DNA of 35,588 nt from a virus (taxonomy: Duplodnaviria; Heunggongvirae; Uroviricota; Caudoviricetes). Below, piece by piece: positions 1 through 31,504 of the stretch. Each line of letters opens with the position of its first letter. Position 1 is the stretch's first letter. A program made the translations under genes and the position numbers. The notes under the pieces were generated by a model, which was given only the letters and a program-made list of their open reading frames with translations, was not told the DNA's origin and searched no databases. The stretch is taken from IMG/VR virus record IMGVR_UViG_2585427725_000018; one strand, 5' to 3'.

Positions 1-280
1 GGTCATAACTCCTCATGTATGTGGGGTGCTCGATGGCTCTCGTTATCTGGTTAAGTGTTTTGCAGCGCGGACATTTTATTTCAATGTAGTGAAATGAGGC
101 GCGGGCAAGTAGTTTGTTGCAATTTTTGCATCGTACATTTTGCGTCATTTGCGGCACCTCTTGTGTGGTTACTGCTGCCGATATGATAACAAATCGATCG
201 CTTTTATCGATCGGATTTATTGCATCGATCTGTTATGCCTATTACTTATGAATGGTGTTACCCTCATTTATGAGGGCAAC

Positions 281-315
281 AAAAAGAAAACCCGCAGTTT
301 TTACGCTGCGGGTTT
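281..315 (-). terminator. Rho-independent terminator downstream of the TM2-domain gene
   Basis: Inverted repeat aaacccgcag / ctgcgggttt (about 10 bp stem, 8 nt loop), followed on the minus strand by a U-rich tract (tcttttt gttg). The gene it follows stops at 341. Confidence 0.6.
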
Positions 316-340
316 GTCATTCTGATTCGCCCACTAGGCA

Positions 341-637
341 TTAGCCATATTTGCGGGCAAAGTCTTCATCAGAGGTGCATAGATAGATAAAAAACTCAAT
401 AAATGCCACGATTGCCGGAATGAATGTCCAGCAAAAAATAAGGTAAAGGAATCCTTGCCCCACTTTACCTAAATAAAATTTGTGTGCACCAAGACCACCT
501 AAAAAGAAAGCCAGTAGTGCTGCTGTCATTCTGCTTTTTGAACTTGCTGTTCTTTGAGGTGCTCCACAATTGGGGCAGGATGTGGCATCTTTATGTATTT
601 CCTTGCCGCATCCGCGACAAAATACCATTTCACTCAT
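341..637 (-). CDS. Zinc-ribbon / TM2-domain membrane protein
   Basis: 98 aa ORF. N-terminal CxxC...CxxC zinc ribbon (CRGCG...CPNCG), then a TM2-like segment (GGLGAHKFYLG...) with hydrophobic helices. ATG preceded by AAGGAA at about 7 nt. Confidence 0.7.
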   Translation of the reverse strand: MSEMVFCRGCGKEIHKDATSCPNCGAPQRTASSKSRMTAALLAFFLGGLGAHKFYLGKVGQGFLYLIFCWTFIPAIVAFIEFFIYLCTSDEDFARKYG

Positions 638-670
638 AAAGAGTTCCTTTCAAATTTAAATAAGCGTTAA

Positions 671-693
671 GCCCACCACTCTTACTGGTGGGC
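671..693 (-). terminator. Hairpin downstream of the hok-like gene (possible terminator)
   Basis: gcccacca (7 nt loop) tggtgggc, 8 bp stem, followed on the minus strand by a moderately U-rich stretch. Weak call. Confidence 0.35.
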
Positions 694-772
694 CTCAATT
701 TAAATTTGGGTGCCACTTCGACCATACCCTGGCAACCGATTGACGGGGGATTGCTCCCCCGTCGCGGTTTCC

Positions 773-913
773 TTACTGCTTACACTGTAAGAACGCCGCA
801 AACTCCGCTCCCCAAAAGCTCATCCGTATTTCACACAGCGAACCGTGCAGCATCCAGATGATGAGGATTACCGTCACGCAGAACGTGATGGCCGTAAGCG
901 ATTTTTGCGACAT
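773..913 (-). CDS. hok: Hok/Gef-family type I toxin (small membrane peptide)
   Basis: 46 aa ORF not on the track (below its size cut-off): MSQKSLTAITFCVTVILIIWMLHGSLCEIRMSFWGAEFAAFLQCKQ. Single TM helix followed by the SLCEIR and E-x-AAF(L/M) motifs characteristic of Hok/Gef/HokA-E peptides. AAGGAG lies 8 nt upstream of the ATG; a 9 bp GC hairpin (742-763) sits in the 3' UTR. Confidence 0.65.
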   Translation of the reverse strand: MSQKSLTAITFCVTVILIIWMLHGSLCEIRMSFWGAEFAAFLQCKQ

Positions 914-1104
914 AGCGCTTGCTCCTTTGTTGGAGAGGCGCTAACCTATCACTTGCTTAAGGTAGATATGTTAGGGCCTCGGTTAAACAAAAATGTTTTC
1001 CGGGGCCTTTCCACATCTGGCCTTCGGGTATTCCCTCCGACCATCAGCCGAAAGGCACCCGCACGTAATCTATCGCTTTTTTGTTACTCCGGCAATTCTG
1101 CCTG

Positions 1105-1365
1105 TTAATTCTGAGATAAAGGTAAACTCATCTGATTGTTTCCCCTGTGTGAAGCTGGCAGATCATGCCACGGGATACCTTCTGAAGAGTGAACGCCGGA
1201 GGCGTGTTTCGATGTGAATTTATGGAAAGCTTCCAGTGTTGAGAAGCATACGCCGCATTCCAGGTTGTTACACTGGTAATACTTTTGCCGCACGGTGTTT
1301 GAATCATTTTCCGGACGACTGGTGCGGATACGGGCAGATGCGCCACAAAGCGGACAACGGAACAT
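1105..1365 (-). CDS. ogr: Late gene transcriptional activator Ogr (zinc-finger)
   Basis: MFRCPLCGASARIRTSR...YYQCNNLECGVCFSTLE matches the Ogr/Delta C4 zinc-finger family. Internal ATG at 1365 chosen over the track start (1380) because GGAGGGGG lies 5 nt upstream. Confidence 0.85.
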   Translation of the reverse strand: MFRCPLCGASARIRTSRPENDSNTVRQKYYQCNNLECGVCFSTLEAFHKFTSKHASGVHSSEGIPWHDLPASHRGNNQMSLPLSQN

Positions 1366-1611
1366 AGATACCCCCTCCATTTAACGTGACGCTTCCGTTA
1401 TTTTTAGTTGCACTAGTACAGATTCTAGCTGACTGTCTCTTTGATTGAAAGTTCTTCTGTACCCATAACTCGATCTCGTAAGAATCTCAACTTGTATAAA
1501 GTTATTAATATAAATTTATACTAATAATTAAAATAGTTGCGCTTGCTGTCATGACATGCAGTTAGCTATTATAAAAGATGAATATATAACCATAGGCAAG
1601 ATATAAACTGG

Positions 1612-1677
1612 ATGGGATAAAAATACCTAGGTGAGTAACTAATTATATTTAATTATTTTGAATATTAGTCACTCACC
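1612..1677 (-). terminator. Rho-independent terminator closing the AT-rich accessory cassette
   Basis: ggtgagtaactaat / attagtcactcacc inverted repeat (14 bp, one mismatch, AT-rich loop), followed on the minus strand by tattttttat. Lies 16 bp downstream of the stop at 1693. Confidence 0.6.
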
Positions 1678-1692
1678 GTGGTATTAGAAAAA

Positions 1693-2097
1693 CTAAATAC
1701 TCTCTTGGTTTTTTTTGATTGTTTTTAGAGTTTCTAGATACTGCCTTTTCCTGTCAAGGCTTTGTTTTACTAATTCTTTATCGGTTGGTGATAAATTTTC
1801 TATATCATCCAATGTAAACTCAGCTTTTATTTTTTCTTGTGCTATCTCCTCAAGTTTTTTATATTTGTTACTGACAATTTTGTTGTAACACCAATTAACT
1901 ATAAGAGGAAGGAATAATGATATAAATACAGTTAACTTACTATAGTTTTCTATTCCTATTATATCTTTCACCCGCTCAGAAAAAGGCAGGGTGAGTATAA
2001 TGCTAGCAATAATTGAAGCCAGAAAACCGTATGCTAATCTACGGACATCGTGATTAGCCTTCAGGATTGTGGGAATTGAGTCATTAGTTTTTGACAT
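1693..2097 (-). CDS. Hypothetical two-TM membrane protein with C-terminal charged coiled-coil region (accessory cassette gene 2)
   Basis: 134 aa. Two hydrophobic helices (LAYGFLASIIASIILTLPF; LTVFISLFLPLIVNWCY), then a Lys/Glu-rich tail. ATG preceded by GGAGGAGAAGG. Start overlaps the upstream gene by 14 nt. Very AT-rich compared with the phage backbone. Confidence 0.6.
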   Translation of the reverse strand: MSKTNDSIPTILKANHDVRRLAYGFLASIIASIILTLPFSERVKDIIGIENYSKLTVFISLFLPLIVNWCYNKIVSNKYKKLEEIAQEKIKAEFTLDDIENLSPTDKELVKQSLDRKRQYLETLKTIKKNQESI

Positions 2098-2644
2098 GCC
2101 CCTTCTCCTCCGCGGTTTGTTTATTTATCATCTTTATAGAGCTTTCATCTATAAACATACTGGCTTCCAGGAGAGCAATTATCATGCTTCCCAAAATAGA
2201 GGACAGTTTGATTGATGCTTTCTTTGAATCATCATTTTTCCCATCGTATTCTGAATAACCAAAATAATCTTTGAATAGAAGGCTTTCAATGTCATCAAAG
2301 AAGAAAAAGGATGTAGTTATAACAATTATTGGCTTCTTGTCTATTATCTGAAACGTTACATTTGTTTTATTGAATTTAATTGATGTGTCATTAACTATCT
2401 TAACTAACTCCATCATGTTATTCGCTACTGGGCGATTAACTATACTCATTGTGAGCGATGGAGAAAATCCTGAATCATCAAAATTCAAATAATATTGAGT
2501 TACAGATGATTCATCTTTGTATTCTTTGTCTATGAAACTTTGTATTATTTTTTTATTCAAAGTCGAGCCATCACTTTCATTATATAATTCAATATTATCA
2601 TCATATCTAAGGGCTACACTATCGCGAATCAAATCAATCAACAT
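2084..2644 (-). CDS. Hypothetical acidic soluble protein (accessory cassette gene 1)
   Basis: 186 aa, Asn/Ile/Lys/Asp-rich, no motif I can recognise. ATG at 2644 (track start 2650 is a TTG two codons upstream) with GAGGT about 9 nt upstream. AT-rich. Confidence 0.55.
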   Translation of the reverse strand: MLIDLIRDSVALRYDDNIELYNESDGSTLNKKIIQSFIDKEYKDESSVTQYYLNFDDSGFSPSLTMSIVNRPVANNMMELVKIVNDTSIKFNKTNVTFQIIDKKPIIVITTSFFFFDDIESLLFKDYFGYSEYDGKNDDSKKASIKLSSILGSMIIALLEASMFIDESSIKMINKQTAEEKGHVKN

Positions 2645-2677
2645 TATCAAAAGACCTCAATTGTTATTCCATGCATA

Positions 2678-2707
2678 ATTATACTAAAAGTATCTTAAAA
2701 ACAGCAA
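2678..2707 (-). promoter_or_regulatory. Sigma70-type promoter driving the accessory cassette
   Basis: On the minus strand: -35 TTGCTG (2707-2702), 18 nt spacer, -10 TATAAT (2683-2678). Predicted start about 27 nt upstream of the ATG at 2644. Confidence 0.55.
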
Positions 2708-2867
2708 AATTTTACATTGGTGATACCTATATGTTGATTGTCCCTCTGAACAGGGGGAACTGCTTTTACAATAATGAATGTAGGGCATTCTGGCGCAGAG
2801 CGGTCAGTCTGATAGGGTTGTGTCATAATCGTGTCAGTACATGCCTGAACTAATACATCTAAGTTGC

Positions 2868-3977
2868 TCACTCTGTTTCTGCTATCCATTCCGGGATTTT
2901 TGCTTCAAGCTCAAGCTGCGTGGTAAAGCCGCTGTTATCAATGGTGTGCTCGGCTTTTGCAATAATCCAGTCCTGATTGTCGATGTCACTTTTGAAGCCT
3001 GTCACCGTGCCATGCATTTCAGGGTAGAGTTCTGCACGTCCACGCGCCAGCGTGATGGAGAATGATGCGGCTCCGCGTTGTAGCTGCTGCCACTTTGCCG
3101 CCGCTGCGCGTCTTGCTGCCTGCTCGTTCTGATAAGTCTTGCGTAACACAAAAACATTGCCTTCCGCACCTTCCATATAATCACCTTCACGGCTGCTGCT
3201 TTTCTCCTTTTTGGGCTTGGGCGGTTTGCGGCGTTTCACGCTGACTTTTTTCTTTTTCCCGTAATTAAGATCAAGCCAGTAAGCGCGTACCCCCGTATAC
3301 GCTTCGCGGTCAGCAATGCGGAACTGATGGCGATCGCCACTGCTGCGCGTGATGGCGAACGAGGGCAACGGCTGGCCCTGTGCGTTCACGCCACCGCCTG
3401 GCATGATGAATAACAGATTACCGCTTTTTACCGTAGTGATTGCGCCCAGCATTTCCGCCATGCGCGTAAGGAAGGACATGTCGCTTTCTTCAGTCTGGTC
3501 GGCGTGGTCGATTTCGATATCCATCAGCATTTCGCTGATTTGCGGTTTCAGGCCGTACCGATGAGCGATGGCGGATACCACACGCTCAACGGTCACATCA
3601 TGCCATGACACCTCACGTTTAACGTTAAATTCATCCCGAAAATCTGCGCTTCTGGCTGAAACAGTCAGCCTGTCGGGCGGTCCTTCATGAGCAATTTCAT
3701 CAACAATGTAAGTGCCTTTTTCTGTCAGCGGTTCTCCCTTCCAGCCAATGAGAACCGTCAGGCGCGCGCCCCGTGGCGGTAGCTGCAACTGACCATCCGC
3801 ATCATCCAGCGTGATGGTGAGCTGGTCCGCCTCAAATCCCCGGTTGTCGGTCAGTGACAGGCTCATCAGGCGCTCTGCCACGCCTGACAGCGTTTTACCC
3901 TCCGCGAGAATATCAAAATCCGGCATTTTCACGGGGTCTGTGCCCTGACTGAGCAATTGCATGGTGGTGTCGGTCAT
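2868..3977 (-). CDS. D: Tail protein D (late control gene D family)
   Basis: Long ORF with gpD-like sequence and a Lys-rich linker (KKKKVSVKRRKPPKPKKEK). Start set at the internal ATG (MTDTT...) preceded by GGGAGGGAG; the track ORF extends 44 codons further upstream. Confidence 0.85.
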   Translation of the reverse strand: MTDTTMQLLSQGTDPVKMPDFDILAEGKTLSGVAERLMSLSLTDNRGFEADQLTITLDDADGQLQLPPRGARLTVLIGWKGEPLTEKGTYIVDEIAHEGPPDRLTVSARSADFRDEFNVKREVSWHDVTVERVVSAIAHRYGLKPQISEMLMDIEIDHADQTEESDMSFLTRMAEMLGAITTVKSGNLLFIMPGGGVNAQGQPLPSFAITRSSGDRHQFRIADREAYTGVRAYWLDLNYGKKKKVSVKRRKPPKPKKEKSSSREGDYMEGAEGNVFVLRKTYQNEQAARRAAAAKWQQLQRGAASFSITLARGRAELYPEMHGTVTGFKSDIDNQDWIIAKAEHTIDNSGFTTQLELEAKIPEWIAETE

Positions 3978-31182: not shown

Positions 31183-31358
31183 GATATGTGGCCTCTTGTA
31201 GTAAGTTGTGAAAACTCACCATCCAGAGCTGCGAAACTGTGGGTGGCGAGACGTACGAGGTTCGCAGTACCGGCTACAAGAGATCCCGGCCCGACCGAAG
31301 TCGGCCCCGTACGCCCCGCCATAATTCTGACGCGAAAAAAACGTGGCAATACAGTACG

Positions 31359-31382
31359 CACAAAAAAACCGCTGGCGCGGTT
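31359..31382 (-). terminator. Possible intrinsic terminator inside the early region
   Basis: aaccgc (4 nt loop) gcggtt, followed on the minus strand by T7. Short stem, so a weak call. Confidence 0.35.
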
Positions 31383-31504
31383 GTGCGCTCTTGTAGTCAG
31401 CAGGCTGCGAAACCCGGCACCCGTTTTATGAGGTGCAGCGGAAATGTAACCTGACTGATTGCGGCATGGCAAGCGGTTTTTTTGTGTGTGCATGCTCTGG
31501 TTTC

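What the first reader, a model, noticed from the sequence alone, without database searches (positions are those of the whole stretch)
640..1104. Hok/Gef-family type I toxin locus immediately outside ogr
A 46-aa ORF missed by the ORF track has the Hok family hallmarks (TM helix, SLCEIR, E-x-AAFL), an AAGGAG RBS, a stable hairpin in the 3' UTR and a terminator-like hairpin downstream. Its 5' leader abuts the ogr stop codon. I could not identify an overlapping mok frame or place the Sok antisense RNA with confidence. Whether this addiction-type module is part of the phage (between ogr and attR) or flanking host DNA is unresolved.
Basis: partly seen in the sequence, partly recalled or inferred. 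Interest (0 to 1): 0.6.

Follow-up and report, generated by a model that had tools for sequence, protein, structure and literature searches.

The report
Phage-borne hok/sok toxin–antitoxin locus
This is a real but already catalogued hok/sok-type toxin–antisense-RNA module carried inside a P88-like (P2-related) E. coli prophage next to ogr; its one unusual trait is that it lacks the mok leader reading frame that classical hok genes need for translation.

Summary
Window 773..913 (-) encodes a 46-aa Hok/Gef peptide (Pfam HOK_GEF, 30.1 bits against a cut-off of 22).

Around it lies a complete hok-type RNA architecture:
- a promoter just after the ogr stop, with the transcript starting near G1060
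- a 5' tac element that pairs with a 3' fbi element (708..722)
- an alternative tac/ucb pairing; the variable tac positions covary with both partners across 29 relatives
- a hairpin that sequesters the Shine-Dalgarno (SD) sequence
- a 3'UTR stem-loop
- an antisense Sok gene on the + strand (about 955..1016), whose promoter boxes are present in all 29 relatives (the -35 hexamer varies)

- The module is phage DNA. It is present in the isolated phages P88 and Chuche. In the closest prophage found elsewhere, TM2, com and a methyltransferase gene lie between it and host raiA.
- There is no canonical mok frame. It is missing from the whole 46-aa subfamily, whereas R1, hokB, hokC and intact hokA have it.

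The locus is not new. RefSeq annotates it as 'Hok/Gef family protein'. The exact peptide is in a 2026 Hok catalogue, where a one-residue variant was toxic. About 28% of complete E. coli genomes carry the subfamily.

The only modestly novel angle is how hok is translated without mok. Interest is low.

The parts
1067..1095 (-). hok promoter: -35 TTGCCG (1095..1090), 17-nt spacer, -10 TAGATT (1072..1067). It starts 10 nt after the ogr stop codon.
   Evidence: Read from the sequence. The -10 aligns with the -10 boxes of hokC, hokB and R1. TAGATT/TAGAAT is kept across relatives. The generic promoter scan did not reach its threshold here.
708..1060 (-). Full-length hok mRNA core, from inferred TSS G1060 to the end of fbi. 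The 3' end of the primary transcript is uncertain: the hairpin at 669..695, or read-through to the terminator at 315..288.
   Evidence: The homology block shared with hokC, hokB, R1 and 28 subfamily members begins at GGGTGCC and ends at GGCACCC. MFE -158.2 kcal/mol, z -7.1. The TSS is inferred, not mapped.
1046..1060 (-). tac element (5' end: GGGUGCCUUUCGGCU)
   Evidence: It pairs with the 3' end in the MFE and centroid structures. Alignment columns 10-14 covary with fbi, and columns 10-11 covary with ucb.
708..722 (-). fbi element (GUCGAAGUGGCACCC), the 3' partner of tac in the inert full-length mRNA
   Evidence: Twelve pairs, 99-100% of cells paired. Four pairs show changes on both sides (UA>CG, CG>GC and GC>AU in 7 sequences each).
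1002..1011 (-). ucb element (GAAAGGCCCC), the alternative partner of tac after 3' trimming. In the inert form it pairs with GAGGCC (976..981).
   Evidence: The tac/ucb helix has 10 pairs, 99% paired, with two compensatory pairs in 6 sequences. The ucb/GAGGCC hairpin is 98% paired.
935..980 (-). Sok-target hairpin: GAGGCCCUAAC (980..970) pairs with GGUUAGCGCCUC (946..935). The loop is complementary to the Sok 5' tail. This is the place where mok starts in classical loci, but no start codon is present here.
   Evidence: RNAalifold consensus. 98.7% of cells are paired, but the pairs hardly vary. It forms when tac/ucb is enforced. The mok ATG of hokC, hokB, R1 and hokA aligns here.
913..943 (-). 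Hairpin that sequesters the hok Shine-Dalgarno sequence (SD AAGGAG at 927..922). Its 5' arm overlaps the 3' arm of the target hairpin.
   Evidence: -14.0 kcal/mol, z -4.1. Stability is comparable to R1, hokB and hokC (-13.7 to -15.0). 95% of cells are paired.
773..913 (-). hok coding sequence, 46 aa plus stop
   Evidence: dN/dS is 0.11-0.39 against Salmonella, Klebsiella and Stx-phage relatives. C27 and C44 are invariant in 25 homologues.
742..763 (-). 3'UTR stem-loop. By analogy with R1, this is the likely 3' end of the processed, translatable mRNA.
   Evidence: -19.7 kcal/mol, z -6.4. Five of nine pairs show compensatory changes. The role is inferred from R1 (PMC9841398).
669..695 (-). It belongs to the TM2 insertion, not to the conserved hok module.
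   Evidence: It is absent from P88 and Chuche, where fbi is followed after about 21 nt by the terminator that in this window lies at 315..288.
919..947 (+). Sok promoter: -35 TTGCTC (919..924), 17-nt spacer, -10 TAACCT (942..947)
   Evidence: It is positioned like the sokB and R1 promoters. The 17-nt spacing is kept in all 29 variants. The -10 is TAACCT in 27 and TATCCT in 2. The -35 is TTGCTC in most, with TTGCCT and TTTACT variants.
955..1016 (+). Sok antisense RNA (predicted, about 60 nt): single-stranded 5' tail at 955..972 and a terminator-type hairpin at 973..1009
   Evidence: The annotated SokC and SokB of K-12 both map to 957..1016. The fold is -26.1 kcal/mol, z -4.9. The transcript itself has not been shown.
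957..1016 (-). 19-codon leader ORF (MWKGPGKHFCLTEALTYLP) that exactly spans the Sok target. It is not a conserved mok. It is listed because it could act as a degenerate substitute.
   Evidence: It is present only in the E. coli lineage. Its stop position ranges from -68 to +83 relative to the hok ATG. It is absent from 7 Salmonella/Klebsiella members and disrupted in 3 other sequences.

Best explanation
This is a hok/sok-type type I toxin-antitoxin module carried as accessory cargo (a 'moron') by a P88-like (Xuanwuvirus, Peduoviridae) temperate phage. It sits directly downstream of ogr, at the inner edge of the variable cargo slot next to the attachment site.

Proposed mechanism.
1. A promoter 10 nt after the ogr stop makes a roughly 350-nt hok mRNA.
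2. In that mRNA the 5' end (tac) pairs with the 3' end (fbi). This locks the RNA in an inert fold: ucb pairs with the GAGGCC segment, and the hok SD sits in a -14 kcal/mol hairpin.
3. Slow 3' trimming back to the 3'UTR stem-loop removes fbi.
4. tac then pairs with ucb, and the Sok-target hairpin forms.
5. The short-lived antisense Sok RNA, transcribed from the + strand at about 955..1016, binds that hairpin. The duplex is destroyed, or the SD stays closed.
6. When Sok supply stops, the stable processed mRNA is translated into the 46-aa membrane toxin. Sok supply could stop through loss of the element, host transcription shut-off by an infecting phage, or prophage induction.

What is shown and what is inferred.
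- Shown here: the ORF and its family, the conserved structural elements and their covariation, the Sok promoter boxes and hairpin, and phage residence.
- Inferred by homology with R1 and hokW-sokW: transcript ends, 3' processing, RNase III decay and the trigger.
- Unresolved: how hok is translated without mok. My preferred guess is direct gating of the SD hairpin by the target hairpin, because the two share the segment UAGCGCCUC.
For: Protein.
- Pfam HOK_GEF is above its cut-off. PHROG 251 gives E 2.5e-23.
- Both cysteines are invariant. dN/dS is 0.11-0.39.
- The identical peptide is sequence 1628 of cluster 72 in bioRxiv 10.1101/2025.08.07.668861. Cluster members 72_1621 (one residue different) and 72_1589 were cloned and tested. 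They are not among the three non-toxic constructs.

RNA.
- The locus aligns end to end with hokC, hokB and R1.
- The MFE closes the 5' and 3' ends.
- tac covaries with both fbi and ucb.
- The Rfam hok-leader model hits with E 2.9e-9. That model hits bona fide loci on the hok-sense strand.

Sok.
- Annotated SokB and SokC map to 957..1016.
- The 17-nt spacing is fixed in all 29 relatives and the -10 is TAACCT in 27 and TATCCT in 2. The -35 hexamer varies (TTGCTC in most, also TTGCCT and TTTACT).

Phage residence.
- The module is present in P88, Chuche, 500465-2, P884B11, PhiR44_2 and Shae_phiSM.
- In E. coli 2013C-3181 the order is raiA | methyltransferase-com-TM2-hok-ogr-gpD.
- In a Salmonella P2-like prophage the order is gpU-gpD-ogr-hok | ihfA.

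Precedent. hokW-sokW of the Stx prophage Sp5 is a working type I TA system that aids lysis on induction (PMC8621323).
Against: - There are no transcript data for this locus. The TSS, the 3' ends and Sok expression are predictions.
- The generic sigma-70 scan called neither promoter.
- The Rfam score (47.6 bits) is below the gathering score of 59.
- The mok frame is absent. [quoted passage not shown]
- The SD hairpin is predicted to be closed in both the full-length and the truncated RNA, with P about 1. The toxin may therefore be poorly translated from its native mRNA.
- In this window a TM2 gene separates fbi from the usual terminator. The primary transcript may therefore not end near fbi.
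Confidence: 0.88

Rival explanations
1. The locus is a decaying, translationally silent hok remnant. The RNA architecture persists, but loss of mok has switched the toxin off, as was proposed for the chromosomal hok loci of K-12.
For: There is no mok start in any member. The SD sits in a -14 kcal/mol hairpin that stays closed in all predicted states. R1 needs mok translation. The literature considers chromosomal hok loci mostly inactive.
Against: The ORF is intact at exactly 46 codons in 28 of 29 diverged loci, and dN/dS is 0.11-0.39. Both promoters, tac/fbi/ucb and the 3' hairpin are maintained with compensatory changes. The subfamily is spread over several phage types and 28% of E. coli genomes, with up to 7 copies per genome. 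Near-identical peptides are toxic when expressed.
Confidence: 0.12
2. The 19-codon leader ORF (1016..957) replaces mok. Sok blocks its translation, and ribosomes finishing it help open the hok SD hairpin.
For: The ORF spans exactly the Sok-complementary region and is present in every complete E. coli-lineage sequence apart from three with a base change or short indel. In 8 variants it ends at the TAG that forms the base of the SD hairpin.
Against: In this window it stops 30 nt before the SD. Its stop position varies from -68 to +83. It is missing in 7 Salmonella/Klebsiella members and disrupted in 3 other sequences. Its SD-like GAAGG sits only 4 nt from the ATG and is paired in the predicted folds.
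Confidence: 0.15
3. The locus is a host chromosomal hok paralogue that merely flanks the prophage.
For: hok loci are common on enterobacterial chromosomes. One relative, in Klebsiella oxytoca, lies near ppiD-hupB-lon without obvious phage genes.
Against: Isolated phage genomes carry it between ogr and com or other cargo. In prophages, phage genes lie on both sides of it. The same module follows ogr in prophages integrated at different host sites: raiA, ytfP and ihfA.
Confidence: 0.01

Closest known systems
Hok cluster 72 of Escalera-Maurer et al. (bioRxiv 10.1101/2025.08.07.668861); RefSeq WP_000078920.1 'Hok/Gef family protein'
   Same: It is the same thing. The peptide is identical to catalogue sequence 1628 and to the protein annotated in E. 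coli 2013C-3181. Cluster members 72_1621 and 72_1589 were tested for toxicity.
   Different: The catalogue deals with coding sequences only and explicitly leaves mok, Sok and mRNA structure unanalysed. The RNA anatomy and the absence of mok described here are not in it.
hok/sok (parB) of plasmid R1
   Same: It shares the gene layout, the tac/fbi and tac/ucb switch, the target hairpin, the SD hairpin, the 3' stem-loop, the antisense Sok with its promoter inside the hok 5' region, and the SLCEIR motif.
   Different: - There is no mok frame.
- The toxin is 46 aa instead of 52.
- The SD-hairpin loop is about 9 nt shorter, so the Sok -35 box sits next to the hok ATG.
- It is carried by phages and chromosomes, almost never by plasmids: 35 plasmid records against more than 5000 for R1-type Hok.
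- The Rfam score is 47.6 bits, against 87 for R1.
Chromosomal hokA of E. coli
   Same: It is the best NCBIfam match (HokA, E 6e-9). It shares the M-x-QK start, the W-M motif, AAFL-x-CK and both hard-coded cysteines. The leader and fbi are alignable.
   Different: The score is far below the HokA equivalog cut-off (35.8 against 89). Intact hokA (strain 83972) has a canonical in-frame mok, with ATG at -60 and a GAGG SD. hokA is a fixed core-genome locus, found in 5421 of 5426 genomes. This subfamily is mobile and occurs in 28% of genomes.
hokW-sokW of Stx2 prophage Sp5 (Takada et al. 2021, PMC8621323)
   Same: It is a prophage-borne hok/sok module, shown experimentally to be a type I TA system. 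Sok disappears and Hok is made on induction, which aids lysis. Phage annotators label the present gene 'MokW-like'.
   Different: It is a different paralogue. HokW is 51 aa and HokC-like (MKQQKAM...EVAVFVDYESEK, read from the paper's primers). Stx phages carry a separate 46-aa copy that is 84% identical at the DNA level to this locus.

Membership tests
Hok/Gef toxin family (Pfam PF01848) | Match to the family HMM above the curated threshold | tested here: met
   30.1 bits against a cut-off of 22, E 3.7e-7, covering residues 7-44.
Hok/Gef toxin family (Pfam PF01848) | Peptide of about 50 aa with an N-terminal hydrophobic helix and two conserved cysteines in the C-terminal part | tested here: met
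   46 aa. The hydrophobic stretch is LTAITFCVTVILIIWML. C27 and C44 are invariant in 25 homologues. The role of the cysteine pair is taken from the literature on HokB.
Hok/Gef toxin family (Pfam PF01848) | Toxic when expressed | not testable with these tools
   Published for the one-residue variant 72_1621 and for 72_1589, by overexpression with a constant SD. Not shown for the native locus.
NCBIfam HokA equivalog (NF007290) / Hok subfamily (NF007279) | Score above the curated cut-off | tested here: not met
   35.8 against 89, and 23.6 against 73. It is a distinct subfamily, not HokA.
hok/sok type I TA locus (RNA architecture of Gerdes and co-workers) | Long-range 5' tac / 3' fbi pairing that closes the full-length mRNA | tested here: met
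   Present in the MFE, the centroid and the RNAalifold consensus. Twelve pairs are at least 99% paired, and four have changes on both sides. These changes probably stem from one E. coli/Salmonella split.
hok/sok type I TA locus (RNA architecture of Gerdes and co-workers) | Alternative tac/ucb pairing plus a target hairpin in the processed mRNA | tested here: met
   tac/ucb is 99% paired. The same tac columns that covary with fbi also covary with ucb. This fold lies 0-2.3 kcal/mol above the free ensemble in six members. The target hairpin is nearly invariant, so it is neither supported nor contradicted by covariation.
hok/sok type I TA locus (RNA architecture of Gerdes and co-workers) | Antisense Sok gene with its own promoter and a terminator hairpin, complementary to the hok leader | tested here: met
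   Annotated SokB and SokC map to 957..1016 (+). TTGCTC-17-TAACCT lies upstream. The spacing and -10 are kept in all 29 variants, while the -35 varies. The hairpin has z -4.9. Expression of the RNA is not testable here.
hok/sok type I TA locus (RNA architecture of Gerdes and co-workers) | mok reading frame starting in the Sok target and running into hok | tested here: not met
   No ATG, GTG or TTG ORF in the leader comes within 25 nt of the hok ATG in the window or in most relatives. The mok ATGs of R1, hokB, hokC and hokA align to non-start triplets. The hok frame is closed by TAG 943..941.
Rfam RF01794 'sok' (in practice a model of the hok leader) | Score at or above the gathering threshold | tested here: not met
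   47.6 bits against 59, with E 2.9e-9. All six subfamily loci tested, this window included, score 38-55 bits. hokC, hokB and R1 score 87-118 bits.
hokW-sokW of Sp5 | Orthology to HokW (51 aa, HokC-like) | tested here: not met
   The length, N-terminus and C-terminus differ from the HokW sequence encoded in the paper's primers. Only the PHROG label is shared.

The most novel reading that the evidence does not exclude
The 46-aa (cluster 72) hok loci, this one included, form a lineage of hok/sok that has dispensed with mok.

In this reading the refolding switch and Sok act directly on the hok ribosome-binding site. The 5' arm of the SD hairpin (UAGCGCCUC, 943..935) is also the 3' arm of the Sok-target hairpin.
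- When the target hairpin forms after 3' processing, the SD would open.
- When Sok pairs with its target, the SD would close again.
- No leader-peptide translation would be needed.
Probability: 0.35. Interest if true: 0.4.

Novelty: already known. Interest (0 to 1): 0.2.

Why it matters
For annotation it matters little. The gene is already named in RefSeq and in phage records. Enrichment of hok in prophages is published, and a near-identical peptide has been shown to be toxic.

Two things may be useful.
- The window now has a complete feature map of the module (promoters, tac, ucb, fbi, Sok, hairpins). Rfam misses this whole subfamily at its gathering score.
- The subfamily offers a natural experiment on whether hok can be controlled without mok. 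In R1, hok translation requires mok translation. That question can be tested with simple mutants.

For phage biology, the module marks the inner edge of a variable cargo slot next to the attachment site of P88-like phages. It may contribute to prophage retention, exclusion of other phages, or lysis on induction.

Tried and rejected
An alignment of homologues worked.
- The viral-contig scan returned only near-identical copies, so it added little diversity. Diversity came from the species-representative genomes and from four exact-protein look-ups.
- The generic promoter scan found nothing in 250..1450. The promoters were placed by homology and conservation instead.
- I searched all three frames of the leader for a mok substitute.
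  - The 31-aa ORF 1044..949 and the 3-codon GTG ORF 952..941 are not conserved.
  - The 19-codon ORF 1016..957 is confined to one lineage and has a variable end.
- I tested the direct SD-gating idea with partition functions.
  - The SD stays paired with P about 1 in unconstrained full-length and truncated RNAs.
  - Its mean unpaired probability rises only from 0.34 to 0.39 when tac/ucb is enforced.
  - The enforced MFE does dissolve the -14 kcal/mol hairpin.
  - This is suggestive, not convincing.
- My first hand-set coordinates for the target hairpin were off by one and that constrained energy should be ignored. The tac/ucb-only constraint recovered the hairpin on its own.
- PADLOC has no model matching Hok46 or its neighbours, apart from a marginal hit for ORF 1693..2097.

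Full report
**1. What is there**

On the minus strand, 773..913 encodes MSQKSLTAITFCVTVILIIWMLHGSLCEIRMSFWGAEFAAFLQCKQ.
- Pfam HOK_GEF scores 30.1 bits against a gathering score of 22.
- PHROG 251 ('MokW-like host killing') gives E 2.5e-23.
- NCBIfam places it nearest HokA but far below the equivalog cut-off (35.8 against 89).
- Its neighbours on the same strand are an Ogr/Delta zinc-finger gene (1105..1380) and a TM2-domain/zinc-ribbon gene (341..637).

- The stem at 669..695 has no U-tract and was not called a terminator.
- The promoter, not the leader, abuts the ogr stop.

**2. Where it belongs**

The window is a P88-like (Xuanwuvirus, Peduoviridae) E. coli prophage, cut inside com at the left end and at the integrase stop at the right end.
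- The hok-ogr block (708..1376) is 95-98% identical in six isolated phage genomes: P88, Chuche, 500465-2, P884B11, PhiR44_2 and Citrobacter phage Shae_phiSM.
- In phage Chuche the order is integrase, methyltransferase, com, hok, ogr, gpD.
- In E. coli 2013C-3181 (99.2% identical over 1..1376) the order is host raiA, then methyltransferase-com-TM2-hok-ogr-gpD.
- The module is therefore phage DNA. In that closest relative it lies about 1.6-1.9 kb inside the prophage end.
- In strain BEC1-S17-ESBL-09 a related prophage sits at ytfP and carries different genes between hok and the junction.
- In a Salmonella P2-like prophage, hok is the last gene before host ihfA.
- hok thus marks the boundary between the conserved ogr gene and a variable cargo slot next to the attachment site.
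- In this window a roughly 395-bp segment carrying the TM2 gene has replaced the 21 nt that normally separate fbi from the terminator. That terminator now lies at 315..288.

**3. RNA anatomy**

The locus aligns from promoter to 3' end with hokC/sokC and hokB/sokB of K-12 and with an R1-type hok.
- hok promoter: TTGCCG (1095..1090), 17 nt, TAGATT (1072..1067). The inferred start is G1060, where the family-wide GGGUGC begins.
- Sok position: the annotated SokC and SokB RNAs both map to window 957..1016 on the plus strand.
- Sok promoter: TTGCTC (919..924), 17 nt, TAACCT (942..947) lies upstream, giving a start near G955. The 17-nt spacing and the -10 are kept in all 29 non-redundant relatives. 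The -35 varies between TTGCTC, TTGCCT and TTTACT.
- Sok fold: a free 5' tail plus a 10-bp terminator-type hairpin (-26.1 kcal/mol, z -4.9).
- Full-length mRNA (1060..708): it folds at -158.2 kcal/mol (z -7.1). Its first 15 nt pair with its last 15 nt.

I built an alignment of 29 mRNAs from E. coli, E. albertii, Salmonella and Klebsiella genomes and prophage or phage records, including an Stx-type phage of E. coli O145 (A2).
- tac/fbi is at least 99% paired, with four compensatory pairs.
- The same tac columns covary with the alternative partner ucb.
- The 3'UTR stem-loop has five compensatory pairs.
- Slid-partner controls drop to 29-60% of cells paired.
- The compensatory changes mostly separate the E. 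coli and Salmonella lineages, so they represent few independent events.

The Rfam 'sok' model is in practice a model of the hok leader. It hits hokC, hokB and R1 on the hok-sense strand at 87-118 bits. It hits this window at 47.6 bits and five other subfamily loci at 38-55 bits, all below the gathering score of 59.

**4. The missing mok**

In R1, hokB, hokC and intact hokA, a mok ATG sits 7-9 nt after the conserved GAGG. Here that position reads AUAUCU.
- No ATG, GTG or TTG ORF in the leader comes within 25 nt of the hok ATG.
- The hok frame is closed by TAG 943..941.
- The mok-equivalent frame is open but has no start codon.
- The same holds for most members of the 46-aa subfamily.
- A 19-codon ORF (1016..957) covers the Sok target. 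It occurs only in the E. coli lineage, and its stop position varies from -68 to +83.
- The hok SD sits in a -14 kcal/mol hairpin, as stable as in loci that rely on mok.
- In R1, mutations of the mok start codon abolish toxicity (PMC9841398).

How this subfamily is translated is therefore open. Purifying selection (dN/dS 0.11-0.39) and conservation of all the regulatory RNA elements argue that it is expressed.

One structural possibility is direct gating.
- The SD hairpin and the Sok-target hairpin share the segment UAGCGCCUC.
- With tac/ucb enforced, the truncated RNA forms the target hairpin and the SD hairpin collapses.
- That fold costs only 0-2.3 kcal/mol relative to the free ensemble in six members.
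- Ensemble accessibilities change little.
- R1 has a similar overlap yet still needs mok.
- I rate this at about one in three.

**5. What is already known**

- RefSeq annotates the gene as 'Hok/Gef family protein' (WP_000078920.1). Phage records label it 'MokW-like host killing'.
- The exact peptide is sequence 1628 of cluster 72 in the Hok catalogue of Escalera-Maurer et al. (bioRxiv 10.1101/2025.08.07.668861).
- In that study 72_1621 (V16A) and 72_1589 (the Stx-phage form) were cloned and tested. They are not among the three non-toxic constructs of 45.
- The same paper reports enrichment of hok in prophages and states that mok, Sok and mRNA structure were not analysed.
- hokW-sokW of prophage Sp5, a different HokC-like paralogue, has been shown to be a type I TA system that aids lysis on induction (PMC8621323).
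- The subfamily locus is present in 1545 of 5426 complete E. coli genomes, with up to 7 copies per genome. Nearly all copies are chromosomal. Only 35 plasmid records carry it.

**6. Verdict**

- The open points are resolved: the locus is phage-borne, Sok is placed, and mok is absent.
- The locus is already known.
- The only part that goes beyond existing annotation is the mok-less regulatory layout of this subfamily. That is a modest variant of a well-understood system.
- Function in the phage (retention, exclusion or help with lysis) remains inferred.

Noticed in passing
window 341..637 (-), with flanks 638..707 and 316..340: A 98-aa zinc-ribbon plus TM2-domain ORF (Pfam TM2, E 5.5e-19) lies between the hok fbi element and the terminator that directly follows hok in P88 and Chuche. 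Only 76 of 1560 matching E. coli records cover it. It has no obvious promoter of its own and may be read through from hok.
   Followed up: partly
window 1..148 (-) and 149..287: The Com-family gene is cut by the window start (its ATG is at 148). Its upstream region carries three ATCGATC (GATC) repeats within about 40 bp (roughly 190..230). From memory, this resembles the Dam/OxyR-controlled region of the phage Mu com-mom operon. In relatives a DNA methyltransferase follows com.
   Followed up: no
window 1381..2867: An AT-rich island lies between ogr and gpD with two ORFs (1693..2097 and 2084..2650, both on the minus strand) that have no Pfam family. It is found in only 2 of 5426 complete E. 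coli genomes. There is a marginal PADLOC hit (PDC-M03A, E 0.001). It may be rare phage cargo, possibly a defence candidate.
   Followed up: partly
window 31239..31326 (-) and 31362..31436 (-): The Rfam families C4 antisense RNA (81.1 bits) and isrK (66.7 bits) lie side by side, both above their gathering scores. This suggests a P1/P7-type antisense immunity module in this phage.
   Followed up: no
L101 3001..3141 and 3491..3631; L102 3001..3141 and 3495..3635: Two complete 46-aa hok loci lie in tandem, about 490 bp apart, in Salmonella enterica. Each has its own leader and fbi element.
   Followed up: partly
L009, L010, L013: Hok46 loci 100% (L009, L010) or 74% (L013) identical at protein level to this window's Hok occur in assemblies labelled Planococcaceae MAG, Vagococcus sp. 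and Xanthomonas pisi. Assembly contamination is the most likely cause.
   Followed up: no
L020, L025, L028 and about 20 other IMG/VR loci of length 2641: Many IMG/VR viral contigs end exactly 3 nt after the hok stop codon. Provirus boundary calls appear to cut at this gene, which would hide the cargo slot beyond it.
   Followed up: no
L097 3295..3492 (-): The Rfam family STnc540 sRNA (171.6 bits) lies directly after the hok46 locus, at the junction of a Salmonella P2-like prophage with host ihfA.
   Followed up: no
window 700..714 compared with L104 (hokA of strain 83972): The sequence GCACCCAAATTTA (the end of fbi plus 6 nt) is identical in this window's TM2-bearing variant and in chromosomal hokA. 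Other P88-like phages read GGCACCCTATCTC. This could be chance or an old recombination joint.
   Followed up: no
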